64,000 bases of DNA from Octopus vulgaris (Eukaryota), in contig OX597817.1 of assembly GCA_951406725.2 (NCBI GenBank), forward strand, positions 16,492,001 to 16,556,000, written 5' to 3'. Numbering within the stretch: position 1 is the stretch's first letter; each line of letters begins with the position of its first letter. Shown piece after piece: positions 18,001 to 24,000 of this stretch. A program made the position numbers.

Positions 18001-21000
18001 TTTTGTTTTGTGCATCTGCAGATTTCTACCACACACATACATATGTAATTAAAAAAGTTCAAACAGGGAATTATTCCATTCACTATAATGTTTACTATAG
18101 AGATTATGTAACAAATTATGCTTTACACTTCTATATTTAACTGTGCGTGTATACTCCTTACTTTTGTTTCCGGTGTCTTCTGCTCTTCTATTAGAAAGGT
18201 TTACCTGGGAATTTACCATGCACAAAAAGTACAAGTAAAATATAACCCTATGCATGCCTCACCAAAATATCACCATGCCCCACGTTGGGTATCACAGACC
18301 TACACTGAGAGGATCTCTTCTGTTTGGCTGCAGCTGTGGATATTTCAAAGTCTATTGAAAATTTTAAAATCCAGTCAGCCAAGCTGAATCTCAGAAGACA
18401 TTTTACTTTTACCAGAAAAATTTAATAAAACTTATAGAGGTTTGAAGTTTGATAATTGCCACCCAGCCAGAAAACAATATCAGGGACTTGTCATTTTGTG
18501 TGTTATAATATGAAACCAAATAAATCAACTATTCCACATTCAGAAATTCATGACTAAGCAAAACAAAAAAATCTATTTGGTTAATAATTTTACCACATCT
18601 CAACCCGGGATACAAGCAACAGAACATGGTTTCACACAGAATATATTTGCCAACATGTGCTATTTCACAGACAAGAGCTCTCATGCTTGGTCTGTTACTA
18701 TGAAAACAGGTACAAATATGTCTGTGACTCACAACTGGCTGAAACAAACCAATTTGCAAACTTTTTAAGCTATTCTTTGATATATGGTAAAAATTAATTA
18801 GCCAATAAAAACATTACACTGGTTACAAAATCAATTCTAACGAATTGAAAATTGGCAACCAAACAGAAAAAAAATAAATCTAACACAATGATACTCTTCC
18901 AAAGTTTTCCTCATAAGACTGCTAGATATAGCTTACCCTTAACTAAGAATTTCTCCTGCAGTCGTTCCACTAAGATGAAAGCATTAGTGGTATCCAATAC
19001 CAACTCTTCCCAAAGTTGTGCCATAACATCGGTCATATGAGTTAATAAGAAACCTTTACCAGAGAGTCTTCTTTGTTGTAGCCACTGGTTAAACATGCAA
19101 GTGACAAGCAAACATCATAGCATCTGATAGTCCAGCTGCCTTTCCTGTATTTATAACCTTAAACCAAGATCTAGATTCAATAGTTGCTACCTTGCTGGGT
19201 CTACCCGGAGTAGACCTTTCTTTAAAATGCATAATAATCTACATGAAACTGCAGCTTTTGCCACCACAATATCACTGTTGAAAATTTTTAACTTAAGAGG
19301 CAGGCAACCGTAGAAATGATAATTCAGAATGAGATATCAATCTTCACGCAACATATTAGGTGACTATATCATCATCATCGTTTAACGTCCGTTCTCCATG
19401 CTAGCACGGGTTGGACGGTTCGACCGGGGATCTGGGAAGCCAGAAGGCTGCACCAGGCCCAGTCTGAACTGGCAGTGTTTCTACAGCTGGATGCCCTTCC
19501 CAACACCAACCACTCCATGAGTGTAGTGGGTGCTTTTTATGTGCCAGGCGAGGCTGGCAACGGCCACGATTCGGATGGTGCTCTTTACGTGCCACCAGCA
19601 CGGAAGCCAGTCGAGGCGGCGCTGGCAACAGCCACGATTCGGATGGTGCTTTTTACGTACCACCAGACTAGTACAATAGTATAATACAGTATATAATATA
19701 TACATATAGTATAACATAGTAGAATACAAATATGAAGGAAAAACAAAAAGCACAAGACAACCTTAAAAGAGTAGAATTTATTTTGACATATAACACCACA
19801 GTAGTAAATTACTTCTGTTTCTTAGCAGCAGGTTTCTGAGTGCCAGATGCAGATTTAGGTGTAGACTGAGCAGGTTTAGGGGATTGAGCCTGCTTTGCAG
19901 CCGGTTTGGGTGACTTTGCAGCTGGCTGGGCCTGTTTAGCAGGTTGTGCCTGTTTTGTAGCCTGCGCTGGTTTGGGCGACTTTGCAGCTGGCTGAGGTTG
20001 CGTCTGCTTTGCAGCTTGTGCTGGTTTCGGTGTCTTGGCAGCTGGCTGGGCTTGTTTCTGGGGTTGAGTTTGTTTTTGAGCTTGACCCTGCTTTGGAGTT
20101 TGAGCCTGTTTAGGTGCCTTATCCGACTTTGGAGTCTGAGCTTGTTTTTGAGGCTTATCTGACTTAGGTGCCTGAGCCTGTTTTGGAGCTTTATCTGATT
20201 TTGGAGTCTGGGCTTGTTTGGGTGCCTTATCAGTTTTCGGAGTCTGGGCCTGTTTTTGTGCTTTATCTGATTTAGGAGCCTGAGCCTGTTTTGGTGCTTT
20301 GTCTGACTTAGGAGTTTGAGCCTTTGTAGTTTGACCCTGTTTAGCAGGCTGACCCTTTGGTGCTTGACCCTGCTTTGGTGTTTGACCTTGCTTAGGCTGG
20401 GATTGTTTTGCTGCTGGTTTAGCAGTTTGCTGTGGCTGTTTAGTAGCTTTAACAGGCTGTGCTTGTGCTGTCCCTTTGGCAGATTTAGACTGCGCCGGAG
20501 CAGCACCTTTGCCTGATTGTGCCTGTTTAGCTGGTTTAGCTTGCTGCTGTTTGGCAGGTTGAGCCTGTTTAGCTGGCTGTGCACCGGAACCCTTTGCTGG
20601 TTTACCAGGCTGAGATACTTTTGCAGCTTTACCAGGCTGGGAAACCTTTGCAGCTTTTCCCGGTTGGGTCACTTTTGCACCCTTACCCGGCTGCGCTTTA
20701 GTAGGCTGAGATGGCTTTGCAGCCTTAGCCGGTTGAGCCCCCTTTGCAGGCTGTGCTCCTTTTGCAGCCTTAGCCGGTGCACCCTTTGCTACCTTAGCTT
20801 GCTGACCTTTTGCAGGTTGAGCACCCTTTGGTGCTTTGGCAGCCTGAGTTGGCTTAGCAGATTTTGCCTTAATAACCTTTTCAGCTTTAACAGGCTGTGC
20901 CTGCTTTGCACCCTTTCCAGCTGCCTTACCTGGCTGAACTCCTTTGCCAACAACCTTTGGTGGTTTGGTTGCTTTAGCTGGCTGACCCTTAGAGGGTTTG

Positions 21001-24000
21001 GCTGCTCCCTTGGCAGAAACCTTTGGAGCTTCTTTACCAGACTTAGCTTTTTTGGCTGCTACTGCTGCAACTTCCTGTGTAGGTTTAGGTCTCTTAGTTG
21101 GCTGAGCTGGTTTTGTCATACCTTTAGCAGCTTTAGTAAGCTTAGCTGCTGCTTTGACAGCGGGTTTAACAGGCTTAGCTGCACCCTTGGCCGCTCCCTT
21201 AGCACCTTTAGCTGCCTTTCCTGCTCCTGCAGCTGGTTTGCCTTGTTTTGCAACCTTGGCACCCTTTGCTGCTTGAGCTGGCTTGGCAACCTTGGCCATC
21301 TTAGCAGGAGTATGAAGGACTGATTTCTGACCACCACTTTTACTGGCATCTCCTGGGCTCGGCCTTTTCTTAGACTGTGGCTGTTGCTTTTTCTGAATAC
21401 TAGCAACAGTAGCAGCCACTTTAGCAGCATCCTTAGCAAGTGATTCACTCCTACTCTTAGAAATTGATGATTGTTTACGTTCACGGCGCCTCTCTTTATG
21501 TTCTTTCATTCTCAAAGCCAGAAGCTTAGCATAATCTGCAGCTTCTTCACGCTTTCTTGCAAATCTCAATGCCTTCATACTACGAAGATGTCTCCTTCTT
21601 TGTAACACCAATGGTGTCACCAATCGTTGAATCTTCGGAGCTTTAGAGAGTGCACTCTTACCTGAAAATAGAAGAGGGGAAAGAGAGGCAAAAATTTAGA
21701 ATTATTAGCTTAAACCAAGCATCAATTCATTTAAAAAGGCAATTAATGTGTAGCGTATATAAAATTTTCTTACACTATCTGTCAATCATGAACTAGTAAA
21801 TAGCTCGACATATCAAGAGCCAACCAGCAATAATTTTGAAGCCAAGATAAAACTAGTAATAATGATTTAACAGTAATATGAGGAATAAGTCTAGTATAAT
21901 TCACTCAGTGTAAGAAAATTTTGACAGACAGTAATTGCCACACGCTGATTACATAAACACAAGCAGAATACTTACGTTTGCTGCCTTCCTTGAGAGGGAT
22001 TGGTCTACGTACAACATATCTTCGTACATCATCTTCTTTAGAAAGATTGAACAATTTCCTAATTTTACCAGCTCTCTTGGGACCAAGACGACGTGGGATG
22101 GTAATATCAGTAAGACCAGGAATTTCCTGCTCACCTGAAAAAGAAATAAGTCGAATGACCCATCAACAAACACTTGAAAAATGTAAAAGTGAGAAGGAAA
22201 AAAAAAAAGAAAGAAAACCTGGAATACATACCTTTCTTGATAATAATTAAGCTCAAAACACTCAAATTGGCATCAACAATACAGCCACGCACAGACTTCC
22301 TTCGCCTCTCACCTTCTCGTCGGGGACGGTAACAAGAATGTCCCTTAGAGAGTAAAAGGCGGACACGTCCAGCTGTCAGGATACCTTGCTTCATGGGAAA
22401 GCCTTGTTTGTCATTTCCACCCGTAATTCGGAAAACATAGCCCTGTATGCAAATAAATATCAGAAATAAATTTCAGTGGCAACCCAAAATTCAAAATTAA
22501 GCAGCATGTTCACAAAATAGACAATATCTCAAGAAAAATGTAATCAAAGTTAGTTTAGCACCAAATGCAAATTATTTGCCAGTGAAGATGTGCAGTTAAT
22601 TTTATCACAATAACCACACAAAATCATGAACTAGTAAATAGCTTGACATACCAAGCACATAAAAAACCCCATCCGAGCGTGGCTGTTTGCCAGCCTCGTC
22701 TGGCACATAAAAAGCACCCAATACACTCACGGAGTTGGCGTTAGGAAGGGCATCAAGCTGTAGAACCACTGCCAGATCCGACTGGCCTGGTGCAGCCTTC
22801 GGGCTTCCCAGACCCCAGTTGAACCGTCCAACCCATGCTAGCATGGAAAGCGGACGTTAAACGATGATGATGATGATACCAAGAGCCAACCAGCAATAAT
22901 TTTGAAGCAGAGATAAAACTAGTAATAATGATTTAACAGTAACATGAGAAATAAGTTTAGCATAATCCACTCAGTCTAAGACAATTTTGACAGCTAAATT
23001 GAGACAGACAATTCAACTAGAAGACACAAAAAGATATGCTATTGTAGATCTACTTTATTGATAAGAATGTAATGGATAGTCTATTCATTACAAAAATCTT
23101 TGTACTAACACAAGGATCATGTCCAAAACTGCATGTAGCAAACCTATTTAAACAAGAAGAACACACATTCTTTGCTTTCATAGAAATGCATAATTAATTT
23201 ACCCCATCTTTAATTACAACAGTAACTAAGTTTACTGCAGTGGTAAGCATCCAGGGGTTACCTAAAACTCATCTACCAACCACGAAGTAAAACTGTCATC
23301 TTAATATAAAATCTACATAAGAGCTGAAGAGAGAGAGAAAGAAATGATCATGAAAAGTAATGAAACAGCTGTAGCCTGGCTAATACCCAAAATGAGTAAC
23401 TTAACCTTGGCATGATGACACTGCTTAGCATTTCAACCTTCATAAAAGAAATTTCTAATGTAGAGAAAAGCAAAAAAAATTTCCACAACGAAGTATACTC
23501 AATGTTTCACTCCTTTTTCAATATTTCGAAGCATCTTAAAAACAATAAAACAGTATGTGACACACACACAACACTCTACTAAGTAATGCAAACAACTGCC
23601 ACCTCACCTTAAAAAAAGGATGGCATAGATTGAACCCTCTAGTGTTCAGATTAATCTGCCAAATGCAGTGCTTATACATTCATGTTGCTTTGAGTTAATC
23701 ATGCATTATTTCATAGCCTTAAGATTTTGATTGTGTGATTGTTTATTTTTAGAATCACATTGCAGGTAGGGGTGAGAGGCCAAATCTGGCTACATAATAC
23801 TTTGGCTGGATATGGCCAGTTTAAATGCTAAAGAGGTGAGACAAGCCCACAGAAACTTAATATACAAGTGTGGTGAACATTCAAGGGTGTTAGGAGCAAA
23901 TCCTGTCAAGTTGCTCCCCATGAAATGCTTTAATTGATCAAGCTCATGTCAGCAAGACAATTCATGCAAAAGTTGTTCTTTGCAAAATGCTCTGCCTCCT

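What the first reader, a model, noticed from the sequence alone, without database searches (positions are those of the whole stretch)
19809..21440. RPS6 with a ~540-aa histone-H1-like basic C-terminal extension (predicted 786 aa)
Seen: the last exon does not stop after the phospho-serine cluster ([11 protein letters not shown], ~residue 243). It continues in frame for ~540 codons of almost only K/A/P/Q/G/T/S, ends ...PAAKKQK*, and is followed 27 nt later by AATAAA. The gene otherwise looks like the functional housekeeping copy (TCT/TOP start, conserved exons, intronic snoRNA candidates). Established: canonical eS6 is ~250 aa; mosquito eS6 has an H1-like K/A/P tail of roughly 100 aa, and Drosophila eL22/uL23 have H1-like N-terminal tails. 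Inference: this looks like a much longer, probably independent, cephalopod fusion. It could put a large polycationic disordered arm on the 40S subunit (RNA or expansion-segment binding, condensates), give eS6 a chromatin role, or be cleaved off.
Basis: partly seen in the sequence, partly recalled or inferred. Interest (0 to 1): 0.93.

Follow-up and report, generated by a model that had tools for sequence, protein, structure and literature searches.

The report
Octopus eS6 with giant basic tail
The octopus gene for ribosomal protein eS6 really does run on into a 543-residue, lysine-rich, disordered tail that a second octopus also keeps; it is an extreme case of a tail type already known from mosquitoes.

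Summary
On the minus strand lies a five-exon eS6 (RPS6) gene. Its last exon (21661..19809) reads straight from the phospho-serine cluster (…SRSES, residue 243) into 543 more codons, then TAA, with AATAAA 26 nt later. The predicted protein is 786 aa. The tail is coding. No stop-free frame appeared in 2000 shuffles of either kind. All 11 tandem-repeat periods are multiples of 3. Six 12-aa repeat units give pS 0.72 against pN 0.066. The decisive result is PDB 9EHO, the Octopus bimaculoides ribosome from a June 2026 preprint. It lists an 808-aa eS6 that matches the core at 236/239 positions and the tail at about 515/543, with five in-frame indels. The preprint's main text never mentions this tail. 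The tail is not a histone H1 relative: no Pfam, PDB or library homologue was found, and it is Q-rich. Named gastropod and bivalve eS6 proteins are 241-251 aa. The closest database relative has a 130-aa tail. This is a real, conserved and unusually long instance of the K/A-rich eS6 tails known from mosquitoes. Whether it stays on the ribosome, and what it does there, remain untested.

The parts
29855..29899 (-). Exon 1: TOP-like pyrimidine start CCTCTTTCTC (29899..29890), 5'UTR, and ATG AAG (29860..29855), followed by donor GTATGT
   Evidence: The transcription start site itself was not measured.
29008..29139 (-). Exon 2, 44 codons ([12 protein letters not shown]...GDEWK), eS6 residues 3-46
   Evidence: Pfam PF01092 E=1.6e-12. 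43/44 identical to 9eho_HH residues 3-46.
22232..22442 (-). Exon 3, 70 codons plus 1 base, eS6 residues 47-116
   Evidence: Pfam PF01092 E=4.4e-34. 70/70 identical to 9eho_HH 47-116. Splice sites read.
21976..22134 (-). Exon 4, 2 bases + 52 codons + 1 base, eS6 residues 117-170
   Evidence: 50/52 identical to 9eho_HH 118-169. Donor GTAAGT.
21441..21661 (-). Last exon, canonical part: the C-terminal helix and the serine cluster [15 protein letters not shown] (residues 170-243). The R.R..S motif starts at residue 229.
   Evidence: 73/73 identical to 9eho_HH 171-243. Motif found. AF2 helix covers exon residues 8-91.
19812..21440 (-). 543-codon K/A/Q/P/G-rich tail (residues 244-786): net charge +111, 54.5 kDa, pI 11.0, predicted disordered
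   Evidence: About 515/543 identical to 9eho_HH 244-808.
20097..20312 (-). Six tandem 12-aa units PK(S/T)DKAPKQAQ(T/A) (36-nt period)
   Evidence: TRF. pS 0.72, pN 0.066, pN/pS 0.09 in frame, against 3.55 and 4.30 in the shifted frames. Pairwise nucleotide differences by codon position are 18/8/86.
20586..20693 (-). Four 9-aa units K(V)(S/T)QPGKAA (27-nt period)
   Evidence: TRF. Over five QPGK-anchored units (these four plus one outlier at last-exon residues 240-248), pS is 0.73 and pN 0.19.
19941..20048 (-). Two 18-aa units (54-nt period) near the C-terminus
   Evidence: TRF, 81% matches, no indels.
19809..19811 (-). Stop codon TAA
19777..19782 (-). AATAAA polyadenylation signal, 26 nt after the stop

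Best explanation
This is the octopus gene for small-subunit ribosomal protein eS6. Its last exon has lost the usual stop after the phospho-serine cluster and encodes a further 543 residues. The tail is evenly charged and polycationic (one K about every 3-6 residues, net +111), Q/A/P-rich and intrinsically disordered. SHOWN: the frame is open. It is used as coding sequence under purifying selection. It grew by old in-frame tandem duplications of 9-, 12- and 18-aa units. A second octopus eS6 sequence (808 aa) keeps it at about 95% identity with only in-frame length changes. INFERRED: the tail arose in the cephalopod lineage by read-through into former 3' sequence, not by capture of an H1 or other gene, and then expanded strongly in octopods. 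INFERRED by analogy with mosquito RPS6, whose shorter tail stays on isolated ribosomal subunits: the octopus tail remains attached to eS6 on the mature 40S. From recalled 40S structures, the eS6 C-terminus emerges at the solvent-side foot of the 40S body. There the tail would act as a long flexible cationic arm that binds RNA non-specifically (rRNA expansion segments, mRNA or neighbouring ribosomes) and neutralises charge. It also leaves the S6-kinase serine cluster internal rather than C-terminal.
For: Coding and selection. There are 0 in-frame stops, against 4 and 54 in the other sense frames. No stop-free result occurred in 2000 shuffles of either kind. T is 5% at codon positions 1 and 2 but 31% at position 3. 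Synonymous codon choice resembles the core exons, with GCT>GCA>GCC>GCG and GGT commonest. All 11 TRF rows have periods divisible by 3. The six 12-aa units give pS 0.72, pN 0.066 and a ratio of 0.09, against 3.55 and 4.30 in the shifted frames. Conservation. PDB 9EHO chain HH, 'Small ribosomal subunit protein eS6', is 808 aa and matches the tail at E=2.7e-242. By my count of the match lines there are 28 substitutions in 543 positions and five indels of 1, 4, 1, 12 and 4 aa (786+22=808). The C-terminal end is shared, so every indel is in frame. The core matches at 236/239. 9EHO is the O. bimaculoides ribosome (passages and section 5 read). An older root. The closest database relatives, P0002 and P0003 (206/239 core identity, against 181-192/239 for 8 named gastropods and bivalves), come from contigs of about 1.2 kb and carry 130-131-aa K/A tails that begin with the same SRSESLA(A)KDAAK. 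Disorder. AF2 pLDDT is below 50 for 490 of 616 residues, with a single helix at exon residues 8-91. Translatability. K/R runs never exceed 3 and the longest A run is 6 nt. Precedent. Mosquito RPS6 tails of about 100-170 aa are encoded contiguously with the serine cluster in the last exon and are retained on ribosomal subunits (PMC548281, passages read).
Against: No transcript, ribosome-profiling or peptide evidence was available here. The 9EHO chain sequence is what the depositors listed. The tool compares sequences only and does not say which residues were modelled, so it does not show that the tail is on the ribosome. The sequence may come from an automated gene model. The preprint's main text has 0 occurrences of eS6, RPS6, extension, tail, lysine, disordered or 40S, and describes the overall architecture as conserved. 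Its supplements were closed. The two word-based protein searches over lengths 338-1078 aa returned no octopus long form, although an 808-aa record would fall in that range. Low complexity makes other frames partly open too. Two GTRAG donor-like sites lie inside the tail. The proposed function rests on analogy and charge, not on any test.
Confidence: 0.6

Rival explanations
1. The tail is translated but does not stay on the ribosome. Either it is cleaved off, leaving a ~28-kDa eS6 plus a free 54-kDa polycation, or the long protein acts mainly off the ribosome, for example in the nucleolus or on chromatin.
For: The tail has selection signatures of its own and is disordered and protease-accessible. 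The preprint reports a conserved overall ribosome architecture and does not mention an extra arm. Ribosomal proteins made as fusions and then processed are known (recalled: ubiquitin fusions of eS31 and eL40; the rat S27a case is mentioned in PMC548281).
Against: Known processed fusions carry the removable part at the N-terminus (recalled). No cleavage motif or folded domain was found. The mosquito precedent shows retention on subunits. A disordered tail would be invisible in cryo-EM whether present or not, so its absence from the paper's description is uninformative.
Confidence: 0.15
2. The tail is mostly not expressed as protein. The main mRNA would remove it as a cryptic intron within the last exon, or use another 3' end, and the 786/808-aa forms would be gene-model artefacts.
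For: There was no transcript evidence here. Two GTAAG sites occur inside the tail (window 20929 and 20686). The low-complexity composition keeps other frames open for 268-296 codons. The long octopus form was absent from the searched protein collection.
Against: pN/pS of 0.09 in this frame only. 86 of 112 pairwise repeat differences fall at codon position 3. All indels against the orthologue are in frame, with a shared C-terminus. No stop follows SRSES, so a short form would need a donor near 21440, and no GTRAG lies there. The transcript-sized contigs of the nearest relatives read through the same junction.
Confidence: 0.1
3. This locus is a specialised long paralogue, and a canonical ~250-aa eS6 elsewhere in the genome supplies most ribosomes.
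For: Only 64 kb could be inspected. The short-protein search cannot exclude an unannotated short octopus copy.
Against: The gene has introns and a TOP-like start. tblastn of the four exon peptides found no second copy in the window; each had only its own hit. The depositors of 9EHO used the long sequence for the ribosomal chain. The core is under very strong constraint, 236/239 between the two octopus sequences. The nearest relatives also carry a tail.
Confidence: 0.1

Closest known systems
Octopus bimaculoides eS6 as deposited in PDB 9EHO, chain HH (808 aa); preprint 10.64898/2026.06.25.734654
   Same: It is the orthologue. The core matches at 236/239 and the tail at about 515/543. It has the same start (LAKDAAKV...), the same end (...KPAAKKQK), the same repeat families and the same residue numbering of exons.
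   Different: It is 22 aa longer through five in-frame indels, one of them an extra 12-aa unit. It has 28 tail and 3 core substitutions, so the window comes from a close relative or a divergent haplotype, not the identical sequence. The preprint's main text does not discuss the tail.
[quoted passage not shown]
   Same: It is a low-complexity basic tail rich in K, A and P, encoded contiguously with the serine cluster in the last exon (PMC548281). It is the same kind of feature on the same protein at the same place.
   Different: The mosquito tails are about 100-170 aa, against 543 aa here. Only 1 of the 5 motifs shared by mosquito tails is present (AAPA). The octopus tail has 15.5% Q and 12-aa [12 protein letters not shown] repeats. 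Other named molluscs lack a tail, so the origin is independent. Retention on the ribosome is shown for the mosquito and not for the octopus.
K/A-rich eS6 tails in psyllids (P0009 Cyamophila willieti 438 aa; P0021 Cacopsylla melanoneura 427 aa), the shrimp Penaeus japonicus (P0018, 347 aa) and many unnamed eukaryotic transcripts
   Same: The architecture is the same. Of the 64 long eS6-containing proteins examined, 27 have tails with K+R >= 0.20 and A >= 0.27.
   Different: Those tails are 98-205 aa (the lower bound is set by the 338-aa search floor) with Q <= 6%. The window's tail is 2.6 times the longest of them. At 23.9% A it is less alanine-rich than any of the 27 (their minimum is 27%), and it is far more glutamine-rich.
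C-terminal domain of linker histone H1
   Same: Both are disordered polycations rich in K, A and P that plausibly bind nucleic acid by charge.
   Different: There is no winged-helix globular domain and no sequence match. K is 22%, against roughly 40% in H1 tails (recalled). There is 1 [ST]P.[KR] site in 543 aa. It is not a family member.
H1-like N-terminal extensions of Drosophila eL22 and uL23
   Same: Lysine-rich low-complexity extensions on ribosomal proteins.
   Different: They are on different proteins, at the N-terminus and much shorter. They were not examined here.

Membership tests
eS6 / Ribosomal_S6e (PF01092) | Match to the S6e domain profile above the gathering score | tested here: met
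   Exon 3 scores 117.5 bits and exon 2 scores 47.8 bits (cut-off 26).
eS6 / Ribosomal_S6e (PF01092) | Conserved C-terminal helix ([11 protein letters not shown]...) followed by a serine cluster in an R.R..S kinase context | tested here: met
   The last-exon core matched 43 distinct PDB eS6 chain sequences at E<=0.001. RERKQSS starts at residue 229, followed by SISKSRSES. Phosphorylation itself was not tested.
eS6 / Ribosomal_S6e (PF01092) | Physical presence in the 40S subunit | not testable with these tools
   The orthologous sequence is listed as the eS6 chain of the octopus ribosome entry 9EHO. Which residues were modelled is not visible here.
Basic low-complexity C-terminal extension of eS6 (mosquito type) | Encoded in the last exon, contiguous with the serine cluster, with no intervening stop | tested here: met
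   The mosquito description is in PMC548281.
Basic low-complexity C-terminal extension of eS6 (mosquito type) | K/A/P-rich, strongly basic composition | tested here: met
   K 22%, A 24%, P 13%, net +111, pI 11.0. The 15.5% Q is atypical.
Basic low-complexity C-terminal extension of eS6 (mosquito type) | Sequence homology to the mosquito tails (five shared motifs) | tested here: not met
   Only AAPA is present, 1 of 5. It is therefore an analogue, not a homologue.
Basic low-complexity C-terminal extension of eS6 (mosquito type) | Tail retained on the mature ribosomal subunit | not testable with these tools
   This needs protein work on purified octopus 40S.
Linker histone H1 | Winged-helix globular domain (Pfam Linker_histone; name recalled) | tested here: not met
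   0 Pfam families on the last exon at E<=0.01 and 0 on the tail at E<=10. AF2 shows no folded domain beyond one helix.
Linker histone H1 | Detectable sequence similarity to H1 tails | tested here: not met
   phmmer of the tail against all PDB chain sequences at E<=1 returned only 9eho_HH. In the representatives search, the hits to the tail that I inspected were repeat-period matches to unrelated proteins.

The most novel reading that the evidence does not exclude
The 54-kDa polycationic tail stays on octopus 40S subunits as a lineage-expanded functional arm: about 130 aa in the nearest relative found, 543-565 aa in Octopus. It would contribute to octopus-specific ribosome behaviour. One example is the ~30% slower translation that the 9EHO preprint reports as independent of the H88 rRNA break (Discussion passage). 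Other possibilities are RNA tethering, ribosome clustering or ribosome transport in the very large nervous system. That would make it the largest functional disordered extension known on a core cytosolic ribosomal protein, and a second octopus-lineage ribosome innovation besides the rRNA break.
Probability: 0.2. Interest if true: 0.8.

Novelty: new member of a known kind. Interest (0 to 1): 0.55.

Why it matters
eS6 is the classic S6-kinase/mTOR read-out and a universally conserved protein of about 250 aa. Here it is tripled in size by a conserved, selected, disordered polycation. If the tail rides on the 40S, every octopus ribosome carries about 110 extra positive charges on a flexible arm that could reach well beyond the particle. 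That could affect rRNA or mRNA binding, ribosome packing or localisation, and the context of the phospho-serines. The feature recurs independently in mosquitoes, psyllids, shrimp and cephalopods, which points to a general but still unexplained advantage of basic tails on eS6. Octopus ribosome preparations, in-vitro translation assays and cryo-EM maps now exist (preprint 10.64898/2026.06.25.734654), so the question can be tested directly.

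Tried and rejected
1. H1 relationship. Pfam on the last exon and on the tail, PDB sequence search, ESM Atlas by features (no usable hit) and Foldseek of the AF2 model against PDB (0 matches) gave nothing. I reject H1 membership.

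2. A donor gene for a 'fusion'. phmmer of the whole last exon against 1.84 billion representatives gave 229 hits at E<=0.001. Those matching the tail were repeat-period matches. P0186 carries TPRTDLGEEQVL-type repeats with a DUF3060 domain. P0193 is a bacterial YadA/collagen-like adhesin. P0201, P0213 and P0235 have no Pfam family. I reject these as homologues.

3. Long eS6-containing proteins of 470-560-aa 'tails' (Rhizoctonia and Ceratobasidium Rab-GAP fusions; Strigamia T1IMV1) are fusions to unrelated, non-basic sequence, possibly chimeric gene models (my inference), not basic tails.

4. snoRNAs. There were 0 Rfam matches at gathering score over the whole window.

5. A second eS6 copy in the window: none.

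6. Literature on a cephalopod eS6 tail. Searches found nothing relevant. One search was badly framed (2 of 4 terms) and is uninformative.

7. Not done. The five exons were never joined. As a result there was no exact-sequence look-up of the 786-aa protein, no full-length fold and no full-length search; everything was run exon by exon. The preprint's supplements (Figures S1-S6, Table S1) were closed and may bear on whether eS6 tail density or peptides were seen.

Full report
1. WHAT IS THERE

The feature lies on the minus strand. The stop-to-stop frame 19809..21695(-) is 628 codons. I read the splice sites directly and obtained this gene model:
- Exon 1: a TOP-like CCTCTTTCTC at 29899..29890 and ATG AAG at 29860..29855, then donor GTATGT.
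- Exon 2: 29139..29008.
- Exon 3: 22442..22232.
- Exon 4: 22134..21976.
- Last exon: from 21661 to the TAA at 19811..19809.

Pfam places Ribosomal_S6e on exon 2 (E=1.6e-12) and exon 3 (E=4.4e-34) and finds nothing on the last exon. The last exon encodes 616 residues. The first 73 are the canonical eS6 C-terminal helix and the serine cluster [15 protein letters not shown]. The remaining 543 are the tail. AATAAA follows the stop by 26 nt. The 786-aa protein as such was therefore never looked up, searched or folded.

2. IS IT MORE THAN CHANCE, AND IS IT CODING?

- Composition. The tail is A 23.9%, K 22.1%, Q 15.5%, P 13.1%, G 7.4%. There are 122 K+R against 11 D+E (net +111), and only 7 of 543 residues are F/W/Y/I/L/M/C. 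It is 54.5 kDa with pI 11.0.
- Stops. The reading frame has 0 stops; the other two sense frames have 4 and 54. None of 2000 mononucleotide shuffles had any stop-free frame. None of 2000 shuffles that preserve codon-position composition had a stop-free frame (mean 7.1 stops).
- Codon positions. T is about 5% at positions 1 and 2 and 31% at position 3. Synonymous codons are mixed (K: AAA 67 / AAG 53), with the same preferences as in the core exons (GCT>GCA>GCC>GCG; GGT commonest).
- Repeat periods. All 11 TRF rows have periods divisible by three: 12, 18, 24, 27, 33, 36, 54, 72, 108.
- Strongest internal evidence. The six 12-aa units PK(S/T)DKAPKQAQ(T/A) at 20312..20097 differ at 86 third positions, against 18 first and 8 second positions, over 15 pairwise comparisons. 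This gives pS 0.72 and pN 0.066 (ratio 0.09). The same units read one or two bases out of frame give ratios of 3.55 and 4.30. The repeats are therefore old and are kept at the protein level in this frame.
- Spacing of charge. Basic residues are evenly spaced (modes at 3 and 6 residues; runs never longer than 3). The longest A run is 6 nt, so there are no poly-lysine or poly(A) stall tracks.
- Caveat. Because the DNA is low-complexity, other frames are also open for 268-296 codons. Openness alone would not be convincing.

3. RELATIVES

Two word-based searches of the large protein collection, restricted to 338-1078 aa, found no octopus long form.

The nearest hits are P0002 and P0003 (388 and 389 aa, unnamed, on contigs of about 1.2 kb). 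Exon by exon they match the window at 206/239 core residues, against 181-192/239 for eight named gastropod and bivalve eS6. They carry 130-131-aa K/A-rich tails that start with the same junction: SRSESLAAKDAAK, against [12 protein letters not shown] in the window. BLAST finds no significant similarity further into the tails.

In the search of proteins under 338 aa, the named molluscan eS6 are all 241-251 aa: Elysia (two species), Haliotis, Mizuhopecten, Mytilus, Pomacea, Mactra and Ostrea (two records). No named mollusc appears in the long class.

Of the 64 long eS6-containing proteins returned (P0002-P0065), 27 have basic alanine-rich tails (K+R >= 0.20, A >= 0.27) of 98-205 aa. They include two psyllids and Penaeus japonicus. 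The lower bound is an artefact of the 338-aa floor. The proteins with 470-560 residues after the core are fusions to unrelated, non-basic sequence.

The window's tail is therefore 2.6 times the longest basic tail seen. It is also unusual in composition: 15.5% Q against <= 6%, and slightly less A than any of the 27.

A filter-only HMMER scan of 1.84 billion representatives found nothing homologous to the tail. The inspected hits that matched the tail were repeat-period coincidences.

4. THE DECISIVE HIT

A sequence search of PDB chains with the tail alone returned one sequence: 9EHO chain HH, 'Small ribosomal subunit protein eS6', 808 aa, E=2.7e-242.

The other exons match the same chain at the expected residue numbers, which independently validates the gene model:
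- Exon 2: 43/44 at residues 3-46.
- Exon 3: 70/70 at 47-116.
- Exon 4: 50/52 at 118-169.
- Last-exon core: 73/73 at 171-243.

From the printed match lines I count 28 substitutions in the 543 tail positions (94.8% identity). There are five length differences of 1, 4, 1, 12 and 4 residues, and 786+22 = 808. Both proteins end ...KPAAKKQK, so every indel is a multiple of three bases.

The tail thus diverges about four times faster than the core (5.2% against 1.3%) but stays open and recognisable throughout.

[quoted passage not shown] I read the outline, section 5 and searched passages. It describes a 3.2 Å cryo-EM structure of the Octopus bimaculoides ribosome. Its main text contains no occurrence of eS6, RPS6, extension, tail, lysine, disordered or 40S. 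The supplements were closed.

Two cautions apply. The chain sequence is what the depositors entered and may be a gene model, and I cannot see which residues were built. The window also differs from that sequence, so it comes from a close relative or a divergent haplotype. I did not determine the species.

5. WHAT IT IS NOT

It is not a histone H1 relative. There is no Pfam family even at E<=10, no H1 chain at E<=1 in the PDB sequence search, no Atlas look-alike and no Foldseek match. AF2 shows one helix (exon residues 8-91, about 18 residues past SRSES) and pLDDT below 50 for 490 of 616 residues. K content is about half that of H1 tails (recalled), and there is a single [ST]P.[KR] site.

It is not homologous to the mosquito tails: 1 of 5 shared motifs is present, the trivial AAPA.

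I found no donor gene. 'Fusion' is therefore unsupported, and read-through into 3' sequence followed by in-frame tandem duplication is the simpler origin. That is my inference.

6. HOW IT MOST LIKELY WORKS

Shown: the tail is a selected, conserved, disordered polycation encoded in phase with eS6.

Inferred: it stays on eS6 in the 40S, as the mosquito tail does (PMC548281, passages read). From recalled 40S structures, the eS6 C-terminus lies at the solvent-side feet of the subunit. The tail would project from there and bind RNA by charge. It would also leave the R.R..S serine cluster internal rather than terminal.

The preprint notes that octopus ribosomes translate about 30% more slowly than squid or slug ribosomes, independently of the H88 break (Discussion passage). 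A link to the tail is pure speculation, but it can be tested in their assay.

Rivals are cleavage or an off-ribosome role (0.15), a non-expressed tail or gene-model artefact (0.10), and a specialised paralogue (0.10).

- The TOP-like start is present, but no transcription start site was measured.
- 'Intronic snoRNA candidates': Rfam gives nothing at gathering score. There are two sub-threshold H/ACA-like matches in intron 2 on the gene's strand (SNORA27-like, 27.9 bits against a cut-off of 64; SNORA26-like, 24.6 against 40). These are two near-identical copies of one sequence of about 190 nt, found nowhere else in the window.
- No second eS6 copy lies in the window.

8. NOVELTY AND VERDICT

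Basic H1-like tails on eS6 have been known from mosquitoes since 1999. I saw the 1999 and 2007 papers only as entries in the reference list of PMC11764897; I read passages of PMC548281.

My searches for any description of a cephalopod eS6 tail found none (one search was uninformative). The orthologous 808-aa sequence is nevertheless already public in 9EHO.

I therefore rate this as a new, extreme member of a known kind. It is real and conserved, apparently not commented on in print, and now directly testable. Interest: 0.55.

Noticed in passing
window 24228..24377 (-) and 28203..28321 (-), both in eS6 intron 2: Two near-identical copies of an element of about 190 nt lie on the gene's sense strand. 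They give sub-threshold full-length H/ACA snoRNA matches (SNORA27-like 27.9 bits against GA 64; SNORA26-like 24.6 bits against GA 40). A 28-nt core occurs only at these two places in the window. Similar ORF peptides around both copies suggest a larger duplicated block within the intron. This could be a duplicated intronic snoRNA or a local repeat.
   Followed up: partly
window 25206..26093 (-), possibly continuing into the adjacent ORF 26094..26432 (-): A reverse-transcriptase ORF fragment (RVT_1, E=2.9e-26 on 25206..26093) of a retrotransposon sits inside eS6 intron 2, in the same orientation as the gene. The adjacent ORF had no Pfam hit. A second RVT_1 fragment lies at 37122..37706 (-) (E=8.1e-21).
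   Followed up: partly
window 10701..11321 (+): An ORF of 206 codons has an Mpv17/PMP22 family domain (PF04117, E=1.5e-17) about 8.5 kb beyond the 3' end of eS6. Its gene structure was not worked out.
   Followed up: no
window 19364..19684 and 22605..22856: Related repeat copies lie in opposite orientation, just downstream of the eS6 poly(A) signal and in intron 2. This was seen from shared ORF peptides (...GAFYVP.EAG...). It is probably a SINE-like interspersed element.
   Followed up: no
window 59631..60642, both strands: A cluster of overlapping long ORFs lies on both strands. One of them (59675..60190 -) gives dozens of weak coiled-coil-type Pfam matches, 51 families. This looks like a low-complexity or tandem-repeat region rather than a defined domain.
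   Followed up: no
database proteins P0002-P0065 (not in the window): Basic alanine-rich C-terminal tails on eS6 are common among long eS6 records: 27 of 64 examined, 98-205 aa. They include psyllids and a penaeid shrimp, besides many unnamed eukaryotic transcripts. The trait is therefore more widespread than the mosquito literature suggests.
   Followed up: partly
protein collection searched: The 808-aa octopus eS6 present in PDB 9EHO was not returned by either search of the 338-1078-aa class, although it shares a 73-residue identical stretch with the query. Either the collection lacks it or the word filter missed it. This remains unexplained.
   Followed up: no
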